This document shows positions 17,322 through 37,008 of a stretch of DNA of 64,000 bases, in pieces. The notes beneath the pieces were generated by a model. It saw only the letters and a list, made by a program, of their open reading frames with translations, searched no databases and had not been told where the DNA came from. The translations under genes and the position numbers were made by a program. Position 1 is the first letter of the stretch. The number at the start of each line of letters is the position of its first letter. The stretch is from a virus (taxonomy: Duplodnaviria > Heunggongvirae > Uroviricota > Caudoviricetes > Herelleviridae): positions 4,381-68,380 of the IMG/VR virus record IMGVR_UViG_2595698877_000001; one strand, 5' to 3'.

Positions 17322-17403
17322 TCTCCTTTAGATTTATTGAACTCCTTACTTTTATTATATCATATTCCCGTTCGTAGCGGCTCCTCCTCTCTCTTATACA
17401 CTT

Positions 17404-26047: not shown

Positions 26048-26440
26048 TTAATGTACGCAGCCAGTTTCTAGTTCTAGTAAACAGCCTTGTACATAATTCA
26101 TAATATGCATCCCTAGTAGTCTTTGGAAATCTAACCCGTTGATGTGTTCGTAGTAGTCCATCTTTTGTCTTATAATGTATTTAATCATGTAGATTAGCGA
26201 ATCATTTATAGGTTTACCCATGCACTCGTCAAGTGCTTCTTTTAGCTCGGTTTCCGATACAAATCTAATTATAAAGTCATTGATTGCTTTTGTAACCATG
26301 TCTCTATTTTCCCTATTTTCTACAATAGCCAGTACTGAGAAATCAAATATTCCTATCGTGAGTCTATTTTGTGTATCCTTTCTAACAGAAATTTCTACTC
26401 CATTCCGTATTATATAATCTACATCACTAGTTAAAAACAA
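26048..26440 (-). CDS. hypothetical protein
   Basis: 130 aa, coupled to the XRE gene. Confidence 0.75.
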   Translation of the reverse strand: MFLTSDVDYIIRNGVEISVRKDTQNRLTIGIFDFSVLAIVENRENRDMVTKAINDFIIRFVSETELKEALDECMGKPINDSLIYMIKYIIRQKMDYYEHINGLDFQRLLGMHIMNYVQGCLLELETGCVH

Positions 26441-26728
26441 TTAATTTCCCTCCGCTACCCTATTTTTCTTTTCTAATAAACCATATCGTTTTGACTCCAG
26501 TTCCCTATTTTCTGCATCAGTTAAATCCTCGAATAATTCTCTGTAGCTTACTTTGAATAAATCTTCTAGCTCCATTAACTTTTCTTGTCTTGGGAACTTT
26601 AGTCCACCTTCCCAGTTACTTACTGTTGAGAAACTTACCCCCAACTTGTCTCCTAATGAATACGTTGTATAACCTGCATCCATTCTATATTTTTTCAATC
26701 TCTTAGGTGTTCGTTCTTTTTTTGCCAT
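26441..26728 (-). CDS. XRE/Cro-C1-type HTH transcriptional regulator
   Basis: LKKYR...GYT...LG..LGVS..TVSNWE.G..FP...L..L..LF. Confidence 0.92.
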   Translation of the reverse strand: MAKKERTPKRLKKYRMDAGYTTYSLGDKLGVSFSTVSNWEGGLKFPRQEKLMELEDLFKVSYRELFEDLTDAENRELESKRYGLLEKKNRVAEGN

Positions 26729-26772
26729 TCTATTTTGACACTCCTCTTCTTTTTATTTGTTGTTGTACATCT

Positions 26773-26801
26773 ACAATAGCACCTTATTTCCTAAATGTCA
26801 A
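26773..26801 (-). promoter_or_regulatory. sigma-A-type promoter of the XRE operon
   Basis: TTGACA-17-TATTGT. Confidence 0.75.
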
Positions 26802-26806
26802 CAACA

Positions 26807-27180
26807 TTCCCTAATTATTTTTTGAAGCAAATCTTACACTACCTAGTATATCTTTTCTGAGTACAAGTTATTCCTAATAAAATAACTATTCCCTATTTTA
26901 TTTTAACTTTTTCCTGATGAAATAGGTTTACCTTATTATTGAGAAACCCTTATATATCAAGGTTTATCTGACATATTATTAATTCTTATTCTGACTAAAG
27001 TATTAATTTTTAAATAAATAATAAGTAATATTCCTGATACTATTCCCTATTTTATTTTTAACTGTTCCCTATATCTATTAGTGTATTTATTACTTATATT
27101 TAATTACATATATAATATTTAATATTAGTTATTTTATTTAGTTATATTTATTATACTCTACGTCCAAAAATTTAATTAAT
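26807..27180. repeat. direct repeats TATTCCCTATTTTATTTT plus AT-rich tract (putative replication origin)
   Basis: Copies at 26886-26905 and 27040-27058; shorter cores at 26807 and 27065; 27081-27160 has 8 G/C in 80 nt. Confidence 0.55.
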
Positions 27181-27415
27181 AAAAGACAAGTAGCTCATCA
27201 GGACAGACGAAGCCGACAGGAGCCGATTGAGCGATTCTAATGTAATTTATCTAACAATAAAGCAGGAACGCTGTACGAGGCTGCTAGGTACCTCATATAA
27301 GTTGATAAACGAGTTAAACCTTTGTCAAGATTAACCCTAAAATAAATATTCAGAATTTTTAAAATATTTTACTTGTTAGTGTGTATTTTTCTTCAATACA
27401 GGTTATAATATAAGT

Positions 27416-27604
27416 ATAGGTTCCCCCATAACCTATCAGTATCTAGTTTTCTCCTCCTCTGATTCGTGAAATCTTAGATACATGTTTTGTTAGGCATATT
27501 ATCCTTCTCACTTTGAATAGGTTTAACTTTTCATTCGTTTTATGCTAACACGCTCTTAAATGAAACGGATTCGCCCTACTACGTATCGTGGTGGGGCATT
27601 TTTT
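27416..27604 (+). ncRNA. candidate ~190-nt sRNA with C/U-rich loops
   Basis: TATAAT at 27404-27409; three stem-loops; 11-bp terminator 27573-27597 + T-tract; no SD-led ORF. Confidence 0.6.
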
Positions 27605-27703
27605 ATGTCCGCAAAAACAGGGAGATACCTTATATATGGTATAATAGAAGTAAGGACATTTCCGACAAAATCAACTACTTAGTACTATATTAATAAATAG
27701 GGT

Positions 27704-27976
27704 GTGGTTTTATTGACCTCATATCAAAAAGATGAAAAATGGAATAAAGCAAAGCAACTTTTAGCTACAGGTTTAACTTGGATTGAAGTGGTTAGTTACT
27801 ACAGGCTCTTAGGTGGAACGAAAGTGAAAGTGTACGCCATCTTAGACCGAGAGAAGTTGTTAATCATGGATATGACTGGAGATAAGAATGTAGCCTTAAT
27901 TGATGCGAACGGGGAAATAGTCTATGCAAGTTATCTAGATGTCAAGAACAGTCGTAAGGTTTTCGAATACAGATAA
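27704..27976 (+). CDS. conserved hypothetical protein upstream of portal
   Basis: 90 aa after TGGTATAAT (27637) and TATATTA (27686) promoters. Confidence 0.75.
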   Translation: MVLLTSYQKDEKWNKAKQLLATGLTWIEVVSYYRLLGGTKVKVYAILDREKLLIMDMTGDKNVALIDANGEIVYASYLDVKNSRKVFEYR

Positions 27977-27983
27977 TTCAGAA

Positions 27984-28000
27984 TATTCCCTATTTTATTT
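27984..28000 (+). repeat. 17-bp copy of TATTCCCTATTTTATTT motif in the portal leader
   Basis: Identical to the cores at 26887 and 27041. Confidence 0.75.
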
Positions 28001-28014
28001 GAATAGAAGGTGGA

Positions 28015-29751
28015 ATGCAAATGGGATTCTGGGATTTCCTAAAAAAAGCTCCTTCAAATCCGCTAGAGTTATTGAATCCAGAGGACAAGCACTCTGAGAT
28101 ATCTACAATGATTCGACAGATTGAAGAAGAGCAGATTATGAAAAGTACAACAGCCAAAGAAGGTAGAGCTAAAGCTTACGAAGAACCGATATTAGGTCAG
28201 TTCTCAATTAACCCTGATTACAAAGAAGCTCCTTCAAAAGATGGTAACTACAATCTGTTAGAAAACCTAAAGTTGTGGTCACGAAAGAACATTATCGTGA
28301 ATGCCATCATCAATACCCGCGTTAACCAAGTCTCAATGTTCTGTAGTCCAGCTCGATATAGTTCGAGAGGTGTGGGCTACGAGGTTCGATTGAAAGACCC
28401 GTTTAAAGACCCAACTACACATGAAGAAGCTGCAATCCAGCGCATAGAAGACTTCCTGCAATACACCGGAAAGGTTAAGGACGACTTCACACGAGATAAC
28501 TTCCGTGGATTCATTAAGAAGATTATCCGTGACCGCCTTATTTATGACAAGATTAACTTCGAATTAATCTACAATAAACAGGGCGAATTAACTCGTTTCA
28601 AAGCCGTTGACGCTTCTACAATCTATGTAGCGGTTGATAAGGAAGGTAAAGAACCTAAAGGCGATAACGCTGATAAGTTCGTACAGGTATTAGACCGCAG
28701 ACCAGTAGCTCATTTCAAAGCAAAAGAGATGGCTTGGGAAGTACATAACCCGCGTACTGACATGACTGTAGGTAGGTATGGTTATTCAGAACTAGAATTA
28801 GCAATGAATCACTTACAATACCATGAGAACACAGAGTTATTCAATGCTCGTTACTTCGCTCAAGGTGGTACGACTCGCGGATTACTTCACATCAAAACTG
28901 GACAAGACCAATCAAGACATGCTTTACAGGCATTCCGTCGCGAATGGCAAACAATGTTTAGTGGCATTAATGGTGCTTGGAAGATTCCGGTTGTATCCGC
29001 AGAAGATGTTAAGTTCATCAATATGACTCAATCATCGAGAGATATGGAGTTTGAAAGATGGCTAAACTATCTAATCAACGTTTTATGTAGTATCTACGCT
29101 ATCGACCCATCGGAGATTAACTTCCCGAACCGTGGCGGAGCTACTGGTAGTTCTGGTAGCACACTAAACGAAACAAGCGCACGAGAAAAGAACCGTATCT
29201 CTCGTGACAAAGGATTAGAGCCTCTATTAAAGTTCCTAGAGGACGCAATTAACAAATACATAGTTTCACAGTTTGGTGACAAGTACATATTCACATTCGT
29301 TGGTGGAGACGCACAGACAGAACGTGAAATCTTAGAAACTCTTGAATTACAATCTAAAGTTGGTCTTACATTTAATGATATTCGTAAGAAGCTTGGCTAT
29401 CCTCCAGTAGAGGGTGGAGACGTAATCAACAGTGGTGTTCACGTACAAAGTCTAGGTCAAATCATGCAAGAGAAAATGATGGAGCAACAGTTCGCATTAC
29501 AGAAACAAGAAGCCAAACAAGCGAATGCAGCAGCTAAAACCAAGACACCAACCAAAGAGCAGTCAGAAGCACAGCAGAAAGGCATGAACGGTGATTCCGG
29601 TAATGTCAATGGTAAAGGAACCTATAACAAGACCGTAGGTAAGGATGGTCAAGTAAAAGGAGCTAGAAATACCAACTCTGCAAAGCAAGGCGGCAAAGGA
29701 AACAACGGTGAAACTGTAAATAGTGATGCTAAGAAGGGCGGTAAGAAGTAA
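28015..29751 (+). CDS. portal protein
   Basis: 578 aa; SPO1/Twort-type portal motifs (RDRLIYDKINFE, YFAQGGTTRGLL, IDPSEINFPN). Confidence 0.93.
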   Translation: MQMGFWDFLKKAPSNPLELLNPEDKHSEISTMIRQIEEEQIMKSTTAKEGRAKAYEEPILGQFSINPDYKEAPSKDGNYNLLENLKLWSRKNIIVNAIINTRVNQVSMFCSPARYSSRGVGYEVRLKDPFKDPTTHEEAAIQRIEDFLQYTGKVKDDFTRDNFRGFIKKIIRDRLIYDKINFELIYNKQGELTRFKAVDASTIYVAVDKEGKEPKGDNADKFVQVLDRRPVAHFKAKEMAWEVHNPRTDMTVGRYGYSELELAMNHLQYHENTELFNARYFAQGGTTRGLLHIKTGQDQSRHALQAFRREWQTMFSGINGAWKIPVVSAEDVKFINMTQSSRDMEFERWLNYLINVLCSIYAIDPSEINFPNRGGATGSSGSTLNETSAREKNRISRDKGLEPLLKFLEDAINKYIVSQFGDKYIFTFVGGDAQTEREILETLELQSKVGLTFNDIRKKLGYPPVEGGDVINSGVHVQSLGQIMQEKMMEQQFALQKQEAKQANAAAKTKTPTKEQSEAQQKGMNGDSGNVNGKGTYNKTVGKDGQVKGARNTNSAKQGGKGNNGETVNSDAKKGGKK

Positions 29752-31752: not shown

Positions 31753-31835
31753 TGTTATATTATACTCGTAGGCTCTAAAAATACGAAAAGGTAGCTTCCC
31801 TCCTCCTAAGTTACCTTTTCCATTTGTGGTATAAT
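31753..31835 (+). promoter_or_regulatory. capsid leader: late promoter TGTTATATTA, 13-bp hairpin with CCCTCCTCCT loop, second promoter TGGTATAAT
   Basis: Motifs at 31753-31762, 31785-31820 and 31827-31835. Confidence 0.7.
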
Positions 31836-31909
31836 AGAGTTAAGGGGAGATAAATTACGTTATCAATAAAATATATAAAATACATATACTAGAAAGGAAG
31901 AATTTATAA

Positions 31910-36132: not shown

Positions 36133-37008
36133 TTGTTATCTAGTATTGATACATACCTACATACCCAGATAGAAACGACTCTGGGGAATTTGTTGACGAA
36201 CCGCTATATTATAGAAGAACTATTAAAAGAGGTTCAACCGAACGTAAGAGAAGCGTTTATCAAGGCTTATGTATACGACGAAAAACGTAACCCGGCTCCC
36301 CCGGAAATACCCATCGTATACACAATGCCACAAGATAAACAGATGCTTCGAGGAGCCATTTATATCGGTCTTAGAGAGGGAGAAGAATCTCACACTAGTA
36401 TCGGTAACCAAGAAAGCACATATGGCGCTCCATCGAGAGGTTTATTATCCGAACAATCCGCAGTCAAAGTAGACCAAACGAACGGAAAAATGTATTTAGA
36501 GGTTAGTAAGCCTATTGCAGAAGTTGATAGCGTAACGGGTATTACATTTTCCAAAGGTGAACTTGAGTATAAAGGTAACCGGATGTACTTCGATTACAAC
36601 GAAGTGTTAGAAAATTTAGAACCTTTTACTGTATGGTACGAGGCGGAATCAGAAAATCCAGCTCGTAAAGGTGAGTTCGGTGTACGTTCTGGTTTCACTA
36701 CTACGGAATACTATTCCATTCTAGTACTCTCTACCAACATGAATACAGTAAGATGCCTAGATTTATTGCTTAAAGCAGTACTCATCTATATGAGAAGTAC
36801 AGCAGAAGAGCATACAAACAACCTGTTACAAGGCGTTAAGTTCGGTCAGATAGATGAGATACCAGTAGGTGAAAACGCTGGCGGTGGCGCTAAAGCAGAA
36901 ACCCTGTATGGACGCGAAACCATCATCAAATACGTTACATCTTATAGTTTAGACGTTCCAATCGAAAACATGATTAAGGAACTTCAAATAAATAGTAAAT
37001 TCAATTAA
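36133..37008 (+). CDS. tail terminator/completion protein
   Basis: 291 aa; synteny before sheath. Confidence 0.6.
   Translation: MLSSIDTYLHTQIETTLGNLLTNRYIIEELLKEVQPNVREAFIKAYVYDEKRNPAPPEIPIVYTMPQDKQMLRGAIYIGLREGEESHTSIGNQESTYGAPSRGLLSEQSAVKVDQTNGKMYLEVSKPIAEVDSVTGITFSKGELEYKGNRMYFDYNEVLENLEPFTVWYEAESENPARKGEFGVRSGFTTTEYYSILVLSTNMNTVRCLDLLLKAVLIYMRSTAEEHTNNLLQGVKFGQIDEIPVGENAGGGAKAETLYGRETIIKYVTSYSLDVPIENMIKELQINSKFN

What the first reader, a model, noticed from the sequence alone, without database searches (positions are those of the whole stretch)
27416..27604. Candidate phage sRNA displaying anti-Shine-Dalgarno C/U-rich loops
Seen in sequence: TATAAT at 27404-27409. Hairpin 1 is ATAGGTT-[CCCCCAT]-AACCTAT (27416-27436). 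Hairpin 2 is GTATCTA...TAGATAC (27439-27481) with loop TCTCCTCCTCT. Hairpin 3 is TGTTAGGCAT...ATGCTAACA (27488-27550) containing TCCTTCTC. An 11-bp terminator GCCCTACTACG/CGTGGTGGGGC + ATTTTTT follows, and fresh promoters after it serve the next gene. There is no SD-led ORF. Established: Firmicute trans-acting sRNAs (RNAIII, RsaE/RoxS) use unpaired C-rich loops to pair with SD sequences. Many early genes in this window have AGAGGAGG SDs (e.g. upstream of 6814, 15607, 19323) exactly complementary to loop 2. Inference: a middle/late RNA that silences early-phage or host translation, or sponges a GGA-binding factor.
Basis: partly seen in the sequence, partly recalled or inferred. Interest (0 to 1): 0.75.

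Follow-up and report, generated by a model that had tools for sequence, protein, structure and literature searches.

The report
Phage small RNA with anti-Shine-Dalgarno loop
A Bacillus cereus-group phage carries an unannotated, strongly conserved gene for a ~190-base non-coding RNA whose exposed loop copies the ribosome's mRNA-docking sequence; in related phages the same RNA heads the tRNA gene cluster, so it probably acts on translation start sites, though no experiment has shown this.

Summary
The window is a Bequatrovirus (97.7% identical to Bacillus phage B4). The promoter-hairpins-terminator unit is real. It is the most conserved stretch of its locus, folds better than shuffles on the plus strand only, and its stems covary.

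New here: covariance models find the same RNA in Bastillevirus and Wphvirus. In the Bastillevirus and most Wphvirus phages examined it ends 4-5 nt before tRNA-Asn, at the head of the phage tRNA array. Look-alike leaders with the same CUCCUCC loop head the tRNA arrays of Caeruleovirus and Tsarbombavirus. This phage has no tRNAs but keeps the RNA, with a stronger terminator.

CUCCUCC in the apical loop of hairpin 2 is the motif present in every detected member. Anti-SD pairing is therefore the best-supported mechanism, but it is generic and not specific to early genes (no class bias, p=0.19).

No transcript evidence was obtained, no Rfam family matches, and no paper was found. First readers of this scan flagged the same element on two other Bequatrovirus genomes. 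Follow-up agents described analogous tRNA-linked anti-SD RNAs in unrelated phages.

The parts
27404..27409 (+). -10 hexamer TATAAT of the RNA's own promoter. It has no -35 and no TG extension. The predicted start is about 27415-27417.
   Evidence: The hexamer is invariant in core Bequatrovirus (TATAAC in LBC2). It lies 6-7 nt upstream of the 5' arm of hairpin 1 in four clades. The downstream context TATAATAnAnnTA..GG is shared with the portal and capsid promoters.
27416..27436 (+). Hairpin 1: a 7-bp stem at the very 5' end with loop CCCCCAU.
   Evidence: P unpaired of CCCCC = 0.97. In alignment A7, 6 of 7 pairs show changes on both sides.
27439..27481 (+). Hairpin 2: an 8-bp outer stem plus a 4-bp inner stem. 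The apical loop displays CUCCUCCUC (27451-27459), the family's most conserved motif.
   Evidence: CUCCUCC is present in every homologue detected (Bequatrovirus, LBC2/LY2, Bastillevirus, Wphvirus). In one search, 6 of 8 outer-stem pairs (helix 2) and 3 of 4 inner-stem pairs (helix 3) show changes on both sides.
27482..27532 (+). Central region, variable between clades, with small unstable hairpins and a second pyrimidine tract UCCUUCUC (27502-27509).
   Evidence: It is nearly invariant within core Bequatrovirus but cannot be aligned with other genera.
27533..27570 (+). Hairpin 4: 11 bp including 2 G-U pairs, with a 16-nt loop containing ACACGCUC.
   Evidence: -46.0 against -42.4 kcal/mol. LBC2/LY2 keep an 8-bp stem of different sequence with ACACGCUC still in the loop. 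Chotacabras changes a U-G pair to U-A.
27573..27604 (+). Intrinsic terminator: an 11-bp G+C-rich stem, loop UAU, one A, then U6.
   Evidence: The stem sequence differs between window, Jabberwock-type and C30-1 phages while pairing is kept. In one search helix 5 has 6 of 7 pairs with double changes. The inner motif ACGUAUCGUG is shared with CAM003 and Belinda.
27637..27645 (+). Separate extended -10 promoter (TGGTATAAT) for the small conserved ORF and the portal gene. It is not part of the RNA and marks its right boundary.
   Evidence: It is invariant in all 11 aligned phages. The same motif precedes the capsid gene and the CAM003 portal module after its tRNA array.

Best explanation
Positions about 27416-27604 (plus strand) encode a stand-alone non-coding RNA of about 190 nt. 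It is transcribed from the TATAAT at 27404 and ended by the terminator at 27573-27604. It folds into a 5'-terminal hairpin, a second hairpin that displays CUCCUCC, a variable centre, a fourth hairpin and the terminator.

It is the Bequatrovirus member of an uncatalogued RNA family of Bastillevirinae phages. In most tRNA-bearing relatives examined, the same RNA is the first gene of the tRNA transcription unit.

Shown here: sequence anatomy, purifying selection, plus-strand covariation, family distribution and tRNA linkage.

Inferred: the exposed CUCCUCC loop contains the CCUCC core of the 16S anti-SD. It pairs with GGAGG-type Shine-Dalgarno sequences and so competes with 30S subunits at translation start sites. 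This would be a broad effect, not one aimed at early genes. The 5' hairpin and terminator would make the RNA stable and abundant.
For: Conservation:
- Within Bequatrovirus the RNA body has 1-4 variable columns per 50 nt, against 13-29 in the flanking genes and 15-26 in the upstream spacer.
- The divergent phages LBC2 and LY2 match the query only across 27335-27710, the RNA and its promoters.

Structure:
- The plus strand folds at z = -3.46.
- Homologues fold into the same order of hairpins.
- On the model-fitted alignment A7, 90.6% of cells are paired, against 72% in shuffles and 34-52% when partners are slid. 27 of 41 pairs change on both sides.
- Many G-U pairs make the structure specific to the plus strand.

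Family:
- Model R1 finds CAM003 at the syntenic place in a whole-genome search (E = 0.0016).
- R1 also finds Evoli, Belinda, BJ4 and W.Ph..
- Model R2 finds Eyuki at E = 1.4e-9 and a single copy in the window's own genome.

tRNA linkage:
- The RNA ends 4-5 nt before tRNA-Asn in CAM003 and Belinda.
- The window's genome has no tRNA genes.

Loop:
- CUCCUCC is present in every member, with P(unpaired) 0.65-0.80.
- Loop 2 is predicted to pair with the 274 start regions at a mean of -13.8 kcal/mol. The intragenic control gives -8.8 and shuffled loops give -11.9 +/- 0.9, with none of 30 shuffles as low.
Against: - No transcript was demonstrated. The only RNA-library data obtained carry a whole related phage at flat depth.
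- Complementarity to SD sequences is generic. There is no enriched target class and no long target, so pairing is plausible but not discriminating. Any C/U-rich loop would score well in a Firmicute phage.
- The CCCCC of hairpin 1 is in the loop only in Bequatrovirus and LBC2/LY2. In Wphvirus it is partly in the stem, and Bastillevirus has no CCCCC run there.
- In relatives the hairpin plus a weak U-tract abuts tRNA genes, so there the RNA may be mainly an operon leader.
Confidence: 0.5

Rival explanations
1. A cis-acting leader. The two promoter-proximal hairpins would act on the transcribing polymerase or on the precursor, for example by processive antitermination in the manner of HK022 put or the B. 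subtilis EAR element, or as a processing and stability leader. This would let transcription run through the hairpin into the tRNA genes. In this tRNA-less phage it would be a relic or serve the portal unit.
For: - In CAM003 and Belinda only 4-5 nt separate the U-tract from tRNA-Asn, which leaves no room for a promoter, so read-through must occur.
- U-tracts are short or displaced in the tRNA-linked members (U4-U5 after a spacer) and canonical (U6-U7) in the tRNA-less genus.
- The two hairpins lie directly after the start site in all clades.
Against: - The tRNA-less Bequatrovirus keeps the RNA under stronger constraint than its protein genes. Here it has a strong terminator and an invariant independent promoter for the next gene.
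- CAM003 also has a terminator plus the same promoter between its tRNA array and the portal module, so the portal unit does not depend on read-through.
- No Rfam family matches.
Confidence: 0.2
2. A decoy or sponge for a protein, not for mRNA. The loop would mimic the 16S rRNA 3' tail or present pyrimidine-rich single strands. It would titrate a host or phage factor that recognises them, such as a nuclease or toxin acting on the anti-SD tail, an initiation factor, or cold-shock-type proteins that bind pyrimidine-rich RNA.
For: - The motif present in every member contains the CCUCC anti-SD core and is unpaired in all clades.
- No specific mRNA target stands out.
- Co-expression with tRNAs in relatives points to the translation apparatus.
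Against: No candidate partner was identified, and no conserved neighbouring gene for an RNA-binding protein was found. The neighbours are an HTH regulator, an unknown 130-aa protein and the portal module. Flanks of the CCUCC core differ from the 16S tail.
Confidence: 0.12
3. The conserved CUCCUCC is really the Shine-Dalgarno sequence (GGAGGAG) of a tiny minus-strand ORF, and the region encodes a micro-peptide.
For: - An ATG or TTG lies 5-9 nt after GGAGGAG on the minus strand in LBC2/LY2 (16 aa), CAM003/Evoli (30 aa; annotated as gp75 in Evoli) and Belinda/BJ4 (47 aa).
Against: - Core Bequatrovirus has no canonical start (ATA or CTG only), and a 1-nt indel in Jabberwock shifts the frame.
- W.Ph. 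stops after 6 codons.
- Peptide lengths are 6-47 aa and sequences are unrelated except where they overlap the conserved promoter and hairpin 1.
- G-U pairs and the T-run place structure and terminator on the plus strand.
- The ORF would run across the plus-strand promoter.
Confidence: 0.04
4. A DNA-level element: an operator set, origin component or packaging signal in the large strand-switch spacer, not an RNA.
Against: - Covariation keeps RNA pairing, including G-U pairs that are mismatches in DNA hairpins of the other strand.
- A promoter and a terminator bracket it at fixed distances in four clades.
- In relatives it sits inside a co-directional tRNA unit, not at a strand switch.
Confidence: 0.04

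Closest known systems
RsaE / RoxS of Bacillales (PMC6158497, PMC8216469, PMC5419742)
   Same: A terminator-ended, multi-hairpin sRNA of Firmicutes. Its unpaired C-rich motifs pair with G-rich ribosome-binding regions of many mRNAs.
   Different: There is no sequence or structure match: no Rfam hit even at E up to 10. This RNA is about twice as long, is encoded by a virulent phage, and has the motif CUCCUCC where RsaE/RoxS have CCCC. It is linked to tRNA arrays in relatives. No targets are known.
LhrC family of Listeria (UCCC motifs; PMC4615310, as cited in PMC12282133)
   Same: Several pyrimidine motifs displayed in loops that bind SD regions.
   Different: LhrC is a host-encoded, multicopy, ~100-nt RNA. 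There is no model match. The phage RNA is single-copy.
[quoted passage not shown]
   Same: Small stable RNAs encoded within or at the edge of a virulent phage's tRNA gene cluster, with no known function.
   Different: Unrelated phage and host, and no sequence relation was tested or expected. No anti-SD loop is reported for the T4 RNAs in the paper read (PMC3014915).
c4 antisense RNA of phages P1/P7 (own knowledge; Rfam C4 family)
   Same: A phage RNA cut out of an operon leader (by RNase P) whose loops mask a ribosome-binding region.
   Different: c4 acts on one specific target in its own operon, through sequences that are not the generic SD. There is no Rfam match here.
Abundant non-coding transcripts of the Herelleviridae Listeria phage CKA15 (PMC12282133)
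   Same: Another Herelleviridae phage with highly transcribed, promoter-led, ORF-free regions of unknown role.
   Different: Those lack canonical terminators and UCCC-type motifs according to the authors. Their genomic position differs, and homology was not tested.

Membership tests
Independent bacterial/phage sRNA gene (generic definition) | Own promoter at a fixed distance from the structured body | tested here: met
   The -10 hexamer lies 6-7 nt before the 5' arm of hairpin 1 in Bequatrovirus, LBC2/LY2, Bastillevirus and Wphvirus. This is sequence evidence only.
Independent bacterial/phage sRNA gene (generic definition) | Intrinsic terminator at the 3' end | tested here: met
   11-bp stem plus U6. 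The stem covaries.
Independent bacterial/phage sRNA gene (generic definition) | No conserved ORF on either strand | tested here: met
   Terminator indels that are not multiples of 3 break the only plus-strand ORF, 27560-27682.
Independent bacterial/phage sRNA gene (generic definition) | Structure supported by covariation | tested here: met
   27 of 41 pairs change on both sides, with 0 of 500 shuffles as high. The alignment was fitted to the model, which favours the structure.
Independent bacterial/phage sRNA gene (generic definition) | A discrete transcript of the predicted size | tested here: inconclusive
   Soil RNA-library contigs cover a whole related phage at flat depth, and two raw-read runs held no reads. 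Nothing can be said about transcript ends.
RsaE/RoxS (Rfam RsaE) | Match to the family covariance model | tested here: not met
   No hit at the gathering score or at E up to 10.
RsaE/RoxS (Rfam RsaE) | Unpaired C-rich motifs that pair with ribosome-binding sites | tested here: inconclusive
   Motifs are present and predicted unpaired, and predicted pairing is stronger than controls. Binding was not tested.
Anti-SD (16S 3'-tail-like) loop RNA at the head of a phage tRNA operon (class proposed in this scan's earlier notes) | Exposed loop containing the CCUCC core | tested here: met
   CUCCUCC at 27451-27457, P(unpaired) 0.69. The motif is present in every clade.
Anti-SD (16S 3'-tail-like) loop RNA at the head of a phage tRNA operon (class proposed in this scan's earlier notes) | Position directly upstream of the first tRNA gene | tested here: not met
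   Not met in this genome, which has no tRNA genes. Met in homologues CAM003, Evoli, Belinda and BJ4, and in the look-alikes of Thurquoise and TsarBomba.
Processive antitermination RNAs (HK022 put, EAR) | Model or sequence match, and read-through of downstream terminators | tested here: not met
   No Rfam family matched. Read-through cannot be tested with these tools.

The most novel reading that the evidence does not exclude
Virulent phages of unrelated hosts may have repeatedly evolved a ribosome-tail mimic: a stable RNA co-transcribed with (or descended from the leader of) their tRNA operon, which displays the anti-SD core. It would globally re-weight translation initiation during infection, for example by masking strong GGAGG sites or by decoying a factor that acts on the 16S tail. 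The Bastillevirinae family found here would be its Firmicute representative, and the Bequatrovirus copy shows that the RNA works without the tRNAs.
Probability: 0.25. Interest if true: 0.8.

Novelty: new variant of a known kind. Interest (0 to 1): 0.62.

Why it matters
Trans-acting small RNAs of virulent Gram-positive phages are almost unknown, and no RNA of this kind is annotated in any of the roughly 60 related genomes examined. In several of them a spurious hypothetical protein is called across it.

The family is conserved across at least three genera, with a module-level resemblance in two more. It is tied to the phage tRNA cluster and exposes the ribosome's mRNA-docking motif. That makes it a concrete, testable candidate for phage control of translation initiation.

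It may also shed light on the old question of what small stable RNAs in phage tRNA regions, such as T4 RNAC and RNAD, are for. The phages involved (B4, BigBertha, Troll, Bastille, W.Ph.) grow on laboratory strains, so the tests are simple.

Tried and rejected
- **Expression data.** 20 soil metatranscriptome runs hold about 21% of the sampled words. When laid, they turned out to carry a ~90%-identical phage in contigs of up to 181 kb at flat depth, and two raw-read runs had no reads. This is no evidence for or against a discrete transcript.
- **IMG/VR pattern scan.** It returned only B4-, BigBertha- and related Bequatrovirus copies plus chance hits in GC-rich contigs. No new diversity.
- **Rfam.** Nothing at gathering score. 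At E up to 10 the only overlaps were Spot_42 and NsiR1, over the terminator alone. Only tRNAs were found in relatives.
- **Model building.** A 5'-domain model (R2) was used instead.
- **Other genera.** R1 and R2 do not significantly detect the Caeruleovirus, Tsarbombavirus or Nitunavirus regions. The Thurquoise and TsarBomba look-alikes rest on position, fold and a shared loop word, not on model scores.
- **Long antisense target in the phage genome.** None beyond 14 nt.
- **Early-versus-late bias of SD complementarity.** None.
- **Literature.** No paper on this RNA or on Bastillevirinae transcriptomes.
- **Relic tRNA.** I considered whether the G+C-richer patch at 27190-27250 is one. ARAGORN and Rfam find nothing.
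- **phi29-type packaging RNA next to the portal gene.** Rejected: there are no complementary loop pairs, the phage is a myovirus of the Herelleviridae rather than a phi29-like phage, and in relatives the RNA is separated from the portal gene by the tRNA array.

Full report
**Context.** The 981-bp gene-free spacer 26730-27710 matches 29 Bacillus phage records. B4 and B5S are 97.7% identical, and most other Bequatrovirus members are 87-92% identical. None of the records annotates an RNA there.

The spacer separates two gene blocks:
- A leftward HTH regulator gene at 26441-26728 (Pfam HTH_3).
- A rightward block with a small protein conserved across Herelleviridae (27713-27976; tblastn hits in 612 records) and the portal gene (28015-29751; Phage_portal).

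**Observation.**
- The 197-nt plus-strand stretch folds at -47.3 kcal/mol, z = -3.46, and none of 200 shuffles does as well. The minus strand gives z = -2.2.
- The minimum-energy fold contains hairpin 1, hairpin 2 and the terminator as described.
Forcing hairpin 3 costs 3.6 kcal/mol relative to the fold with hairpin 27533-27543 / 27560-27570.

**Selection within the genus.** I aligned nine Bequatrovirus genomes across 26230-28210.
- The RNA body has 1-4 variable columns per 50 nt.
- The neighbouring coding regions have 13-29, and the upstream spacer has 15-26.
- Variation is concentrated in the terminator stem. Window-type, Jabberwock-type and C30-1-type stems have different sequences but all pair.
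- The two divergent phages LBC2 and LY2 (about 67% identity) match the spacer only from 27335 to 27710, which is the RNA and its flanking promoters.
- In LBC2 and LY2 the loops CCCCCAU and CUCCUCCUC are kept. Hairpins 1 and 2 each show a compensatory pair. Hairpin 4 has a stem of different sequence with ACACGCUC still in its loop.

**A wider family.**
- A covariance model of the whole RNA (R1) found one significant place in the 160-kb genome of CAM003, a Bastillevirus (E = 0.0016).
- That place has the same layout: an extended -10 promoter, a 5' hairpin, a second hairpin whose loop carries CUCUCCUCCUCU followed by CGUGAA, and a terminator sharing the inner motif ACGUAUCGUG.
- blastn from that copy reached all Bastillevirus records and, through the 3' half, the Wphvirus records.
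- With filters off, R1 scores Evoli, Kamfam, Belinda, BJ4 and W.Ph. full-length (E = 3.5e-5 to 0.013 in 8 kb).
- A 5'-domain model (R2) finds Eyuki at E = 1.4e-9, and finds only one copy in the window's own genome.
- On the model-fitted alignment of nine sequences, 90.6% of cells are paired, against 72% in shuffles and 34-52% with slid partners. 27 of 41 pairs change on both sides. Helices 1, 2, 3 and 5 carry most of this.
- That alignment leans towards the model's structure. Independent single-sequence folds of each clade nevertheless give the same order of hairpins.

**tRNA linkage.**
- In CAM003 the RNA ends at L034:1684 and tRNA-Asn starts at 1689. In Belinda the figures are 595 and 601. 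W.Ph. has a 78-nt gap. No tRNA was found next to the Eyuki copy.
- Seven (CAM003) or three (Belinda) tRNAs follow. In CAM003 the array ends at a terminator, followed by the same TGGTATAAT...GTAAGG promoter that precedes the small ORF and portal gene in the window.
- The window's 164-kb genome has no tRNA gene at all. Compared with CAM003, Bequatrovirus has the RNA unit without the tRNA array.
- U-tracts fit this picture. The tRNA-less genus has U6-U7 directly after the stem. The tRNA-linked members have U4-U5 after a 2-3-nt spacer.
- At the head of the tRNA arrays of Thurquoise (Caeruleovirus) and TsarBomba (Tsarbombavirus) lie promoter-led, well-folding leaders of about 165-175 nt (z = -3.8 and -3.6). 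Each has a long hairpin whose loop carries GUUUCUCCUCCGA or CUCCCCUCCCGUGAA.
- These two leaders are not detected by R1 or R2. I call them look-alikes, with a shared loop word, not proven homologues.

**Strand and coding.**
- G-U pairs in hairpin 4 and the terminator, the T-run, and the promoter all place the RNA on the plus strand.
- On the minus strand, GGAGGAG is followed by ATG or TTG at SD-like spacing in three clades. Evoli gp75 and Kamfam_75 are annotated there.
- However, core Bequatrovirus has no canonical start, W.Ph. stops after six codons, and the peptides (6-47 aa) are unrelated. I give the micro-ORF reading 4%.

**Expression.**
- The run search returned 20 soil metatranscriptomes, each holding about a fifth of the words. 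When laid, these are long contigs of a ~90%-identical phage at flat depth across genes and spacer alike. Two raw-read runs had nothing. The existence of the transcript therefore remains an inference.
- IMG/VR holds identical BigBertha-like copies from many such samples.

**Function.**
- CUCCUCC is the only loop motif found in every member. It is predicted unpaired (0.65-0.80) in each clade.
- Against 274 predicted start regions of the whole genome, loop 2 pairs at a mean of -13.8 kcal/mol. Intragenic windows give -8.8 and composition-matched shuffled loops give -11.9 +/- 0.9.
- The effect is generic. GGAGG is in 41-47% of start regions in each of the three main blocks. The leftward (presumed early) block does not differ from the structural block (p = 0.19).
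- The longest exact complement is 14 nt, at the SD of the gene starting at 36133. About 0.2 matches of that length are expected by chance.
- The small ORF (start 27713), portal, capsid and sheath genes have GGTGG- or GGAAG-type sites that pair poorly with the loop (-6 to -12 kcal/mol). This would fit an RNA that spares them, but the sample is too small to count as evidence.

**Mechanism and odds.**
- That this is a real, selected, plus-strand structured RNA gene: about 0.85.
- That it works by pairing its CUCCUCC loop with SD-type sequences in trans: about 0.45-0.5.
- Rivals: a cis-acting leader (antitermination, processing or stability) at 0.2; a protein decoy or 16S-tail mimic at 0.12; a micro-ORF at 0.04; a DNA element at 0.04.
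The terminator is strong, and the portal unit has its own invariant promoter in all relatives, including those where a tRNA array intervenes.

**Comparison with known systems.**
- It works like the C-rich-loop sRNAs of Firmicutes (RsaE/RoxS, LhrC) but is not a member of them: no Rfam match at any threshold.
- By position it recalls T4 RNAC and RNAD, small RNAs of the T4 tRNA region whose roles are still unknown (PMC3014915).
- By processing logic it recalls the P1/P7 c4 RNA (own knowledge).
- Another Herelleviridae phage, CKA15, makes abundant non-coding transcripts of unknown role (PMC12282133).

**Earlier notes of this scan.**
- First readers flagged the same element on two other Bequatrovirus genomes.
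- Follow-up agents described analogous tRNA-linked RNAs with anti-SD loops in unrelated phages.
- I treated these as leads. The tRNA linkage reported here was found independently, through the covariance-model hits.

Noticed in passing
same genome, outside the window: G000:C1:155100-155167 (+), locus L060: A Pistol self-cleaving ribozyme (RF02679) scores 74 bits (cut-off 34.5), E = 7.6e-15. This fits a preprint that reported a pistol ribozyme on a bequatrovirus segment in metatranscriptomes (10.1101/2022.07.19.500677).
   Followed up: partly
window 31753-31845: Upstream of the major capsid gene lies a TGTTATATTA promoter-like site, then a 13-bp hairpin (31785-31820) with loop CCCUCCUCCU. Directly after it comes TGGTATAATAGAGTTAAGG, the same promoter motif as at 27637. 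This is a second anti-SD-like loop on a different transcript.
   Followed up: partly
window 27637-27655, 31827-31845; variants at 17359(-), 18860(-), 24443(-), 61029(+), 27404(+): A recurring promoter word TATAATA-A--TA-GG extends about 10 nt past the -10 and lacks a -35. It differs from the TTGACT-17-TATAAT promoters near the genome ends. It may define a phage-specific promoter class or a conserved 5' leader.
   Followed up: partly
window 27043-27058 and 27986-28001: The 16-mer ATTCCCTATTTTATTT occurs both in the spacer upstream of the RNA and just before the portal gene's ribosome-binding site. Its meaning is unknown.
   Followed up: no
loci L017, L018, L021, L027, L030-L032 (IMG/VR) and runs X1, X2: Identical BigBertha-like Bequatrovirus sequence appears in many separate soil RNA-library assemblies, in contigs of up to 181 kb at flat depth. 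This looks like phage DNA carry-over, a spike-in or a shared contaminant, not transcription.
   Followed up: partly
L039:302-394 (-) Evoli gp75; L040:288-395 (-) Kamfam_75; also Vinny, Janet, Maceta, OTooleKemple52: Hypothetical proteins are annotated across the promoter and 5' end of this RNA in several Bastillevirus records. They are probably spurious calls triggered by the GGAGGAG on the opposite strand.
   Followed up: yes
L015:500-925 (Bacillus phage SBSphiJ5, Nitunavirus): A G+C-rich, ORF-free stretch of about 430 nt lies just upstream of tRNA-Gln. Near its 3' end it carries a tRNA-like T-arm word (GGTTCGATTCC). Neither ARAGORN nor Rfam calls it.
   Followed up: no
whole genome G000: This phage has no tRNA genes, whereas sister genera carry 3 to at least 16 at the syntenic place between this RNA and the portal module.
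   Followed up: yes
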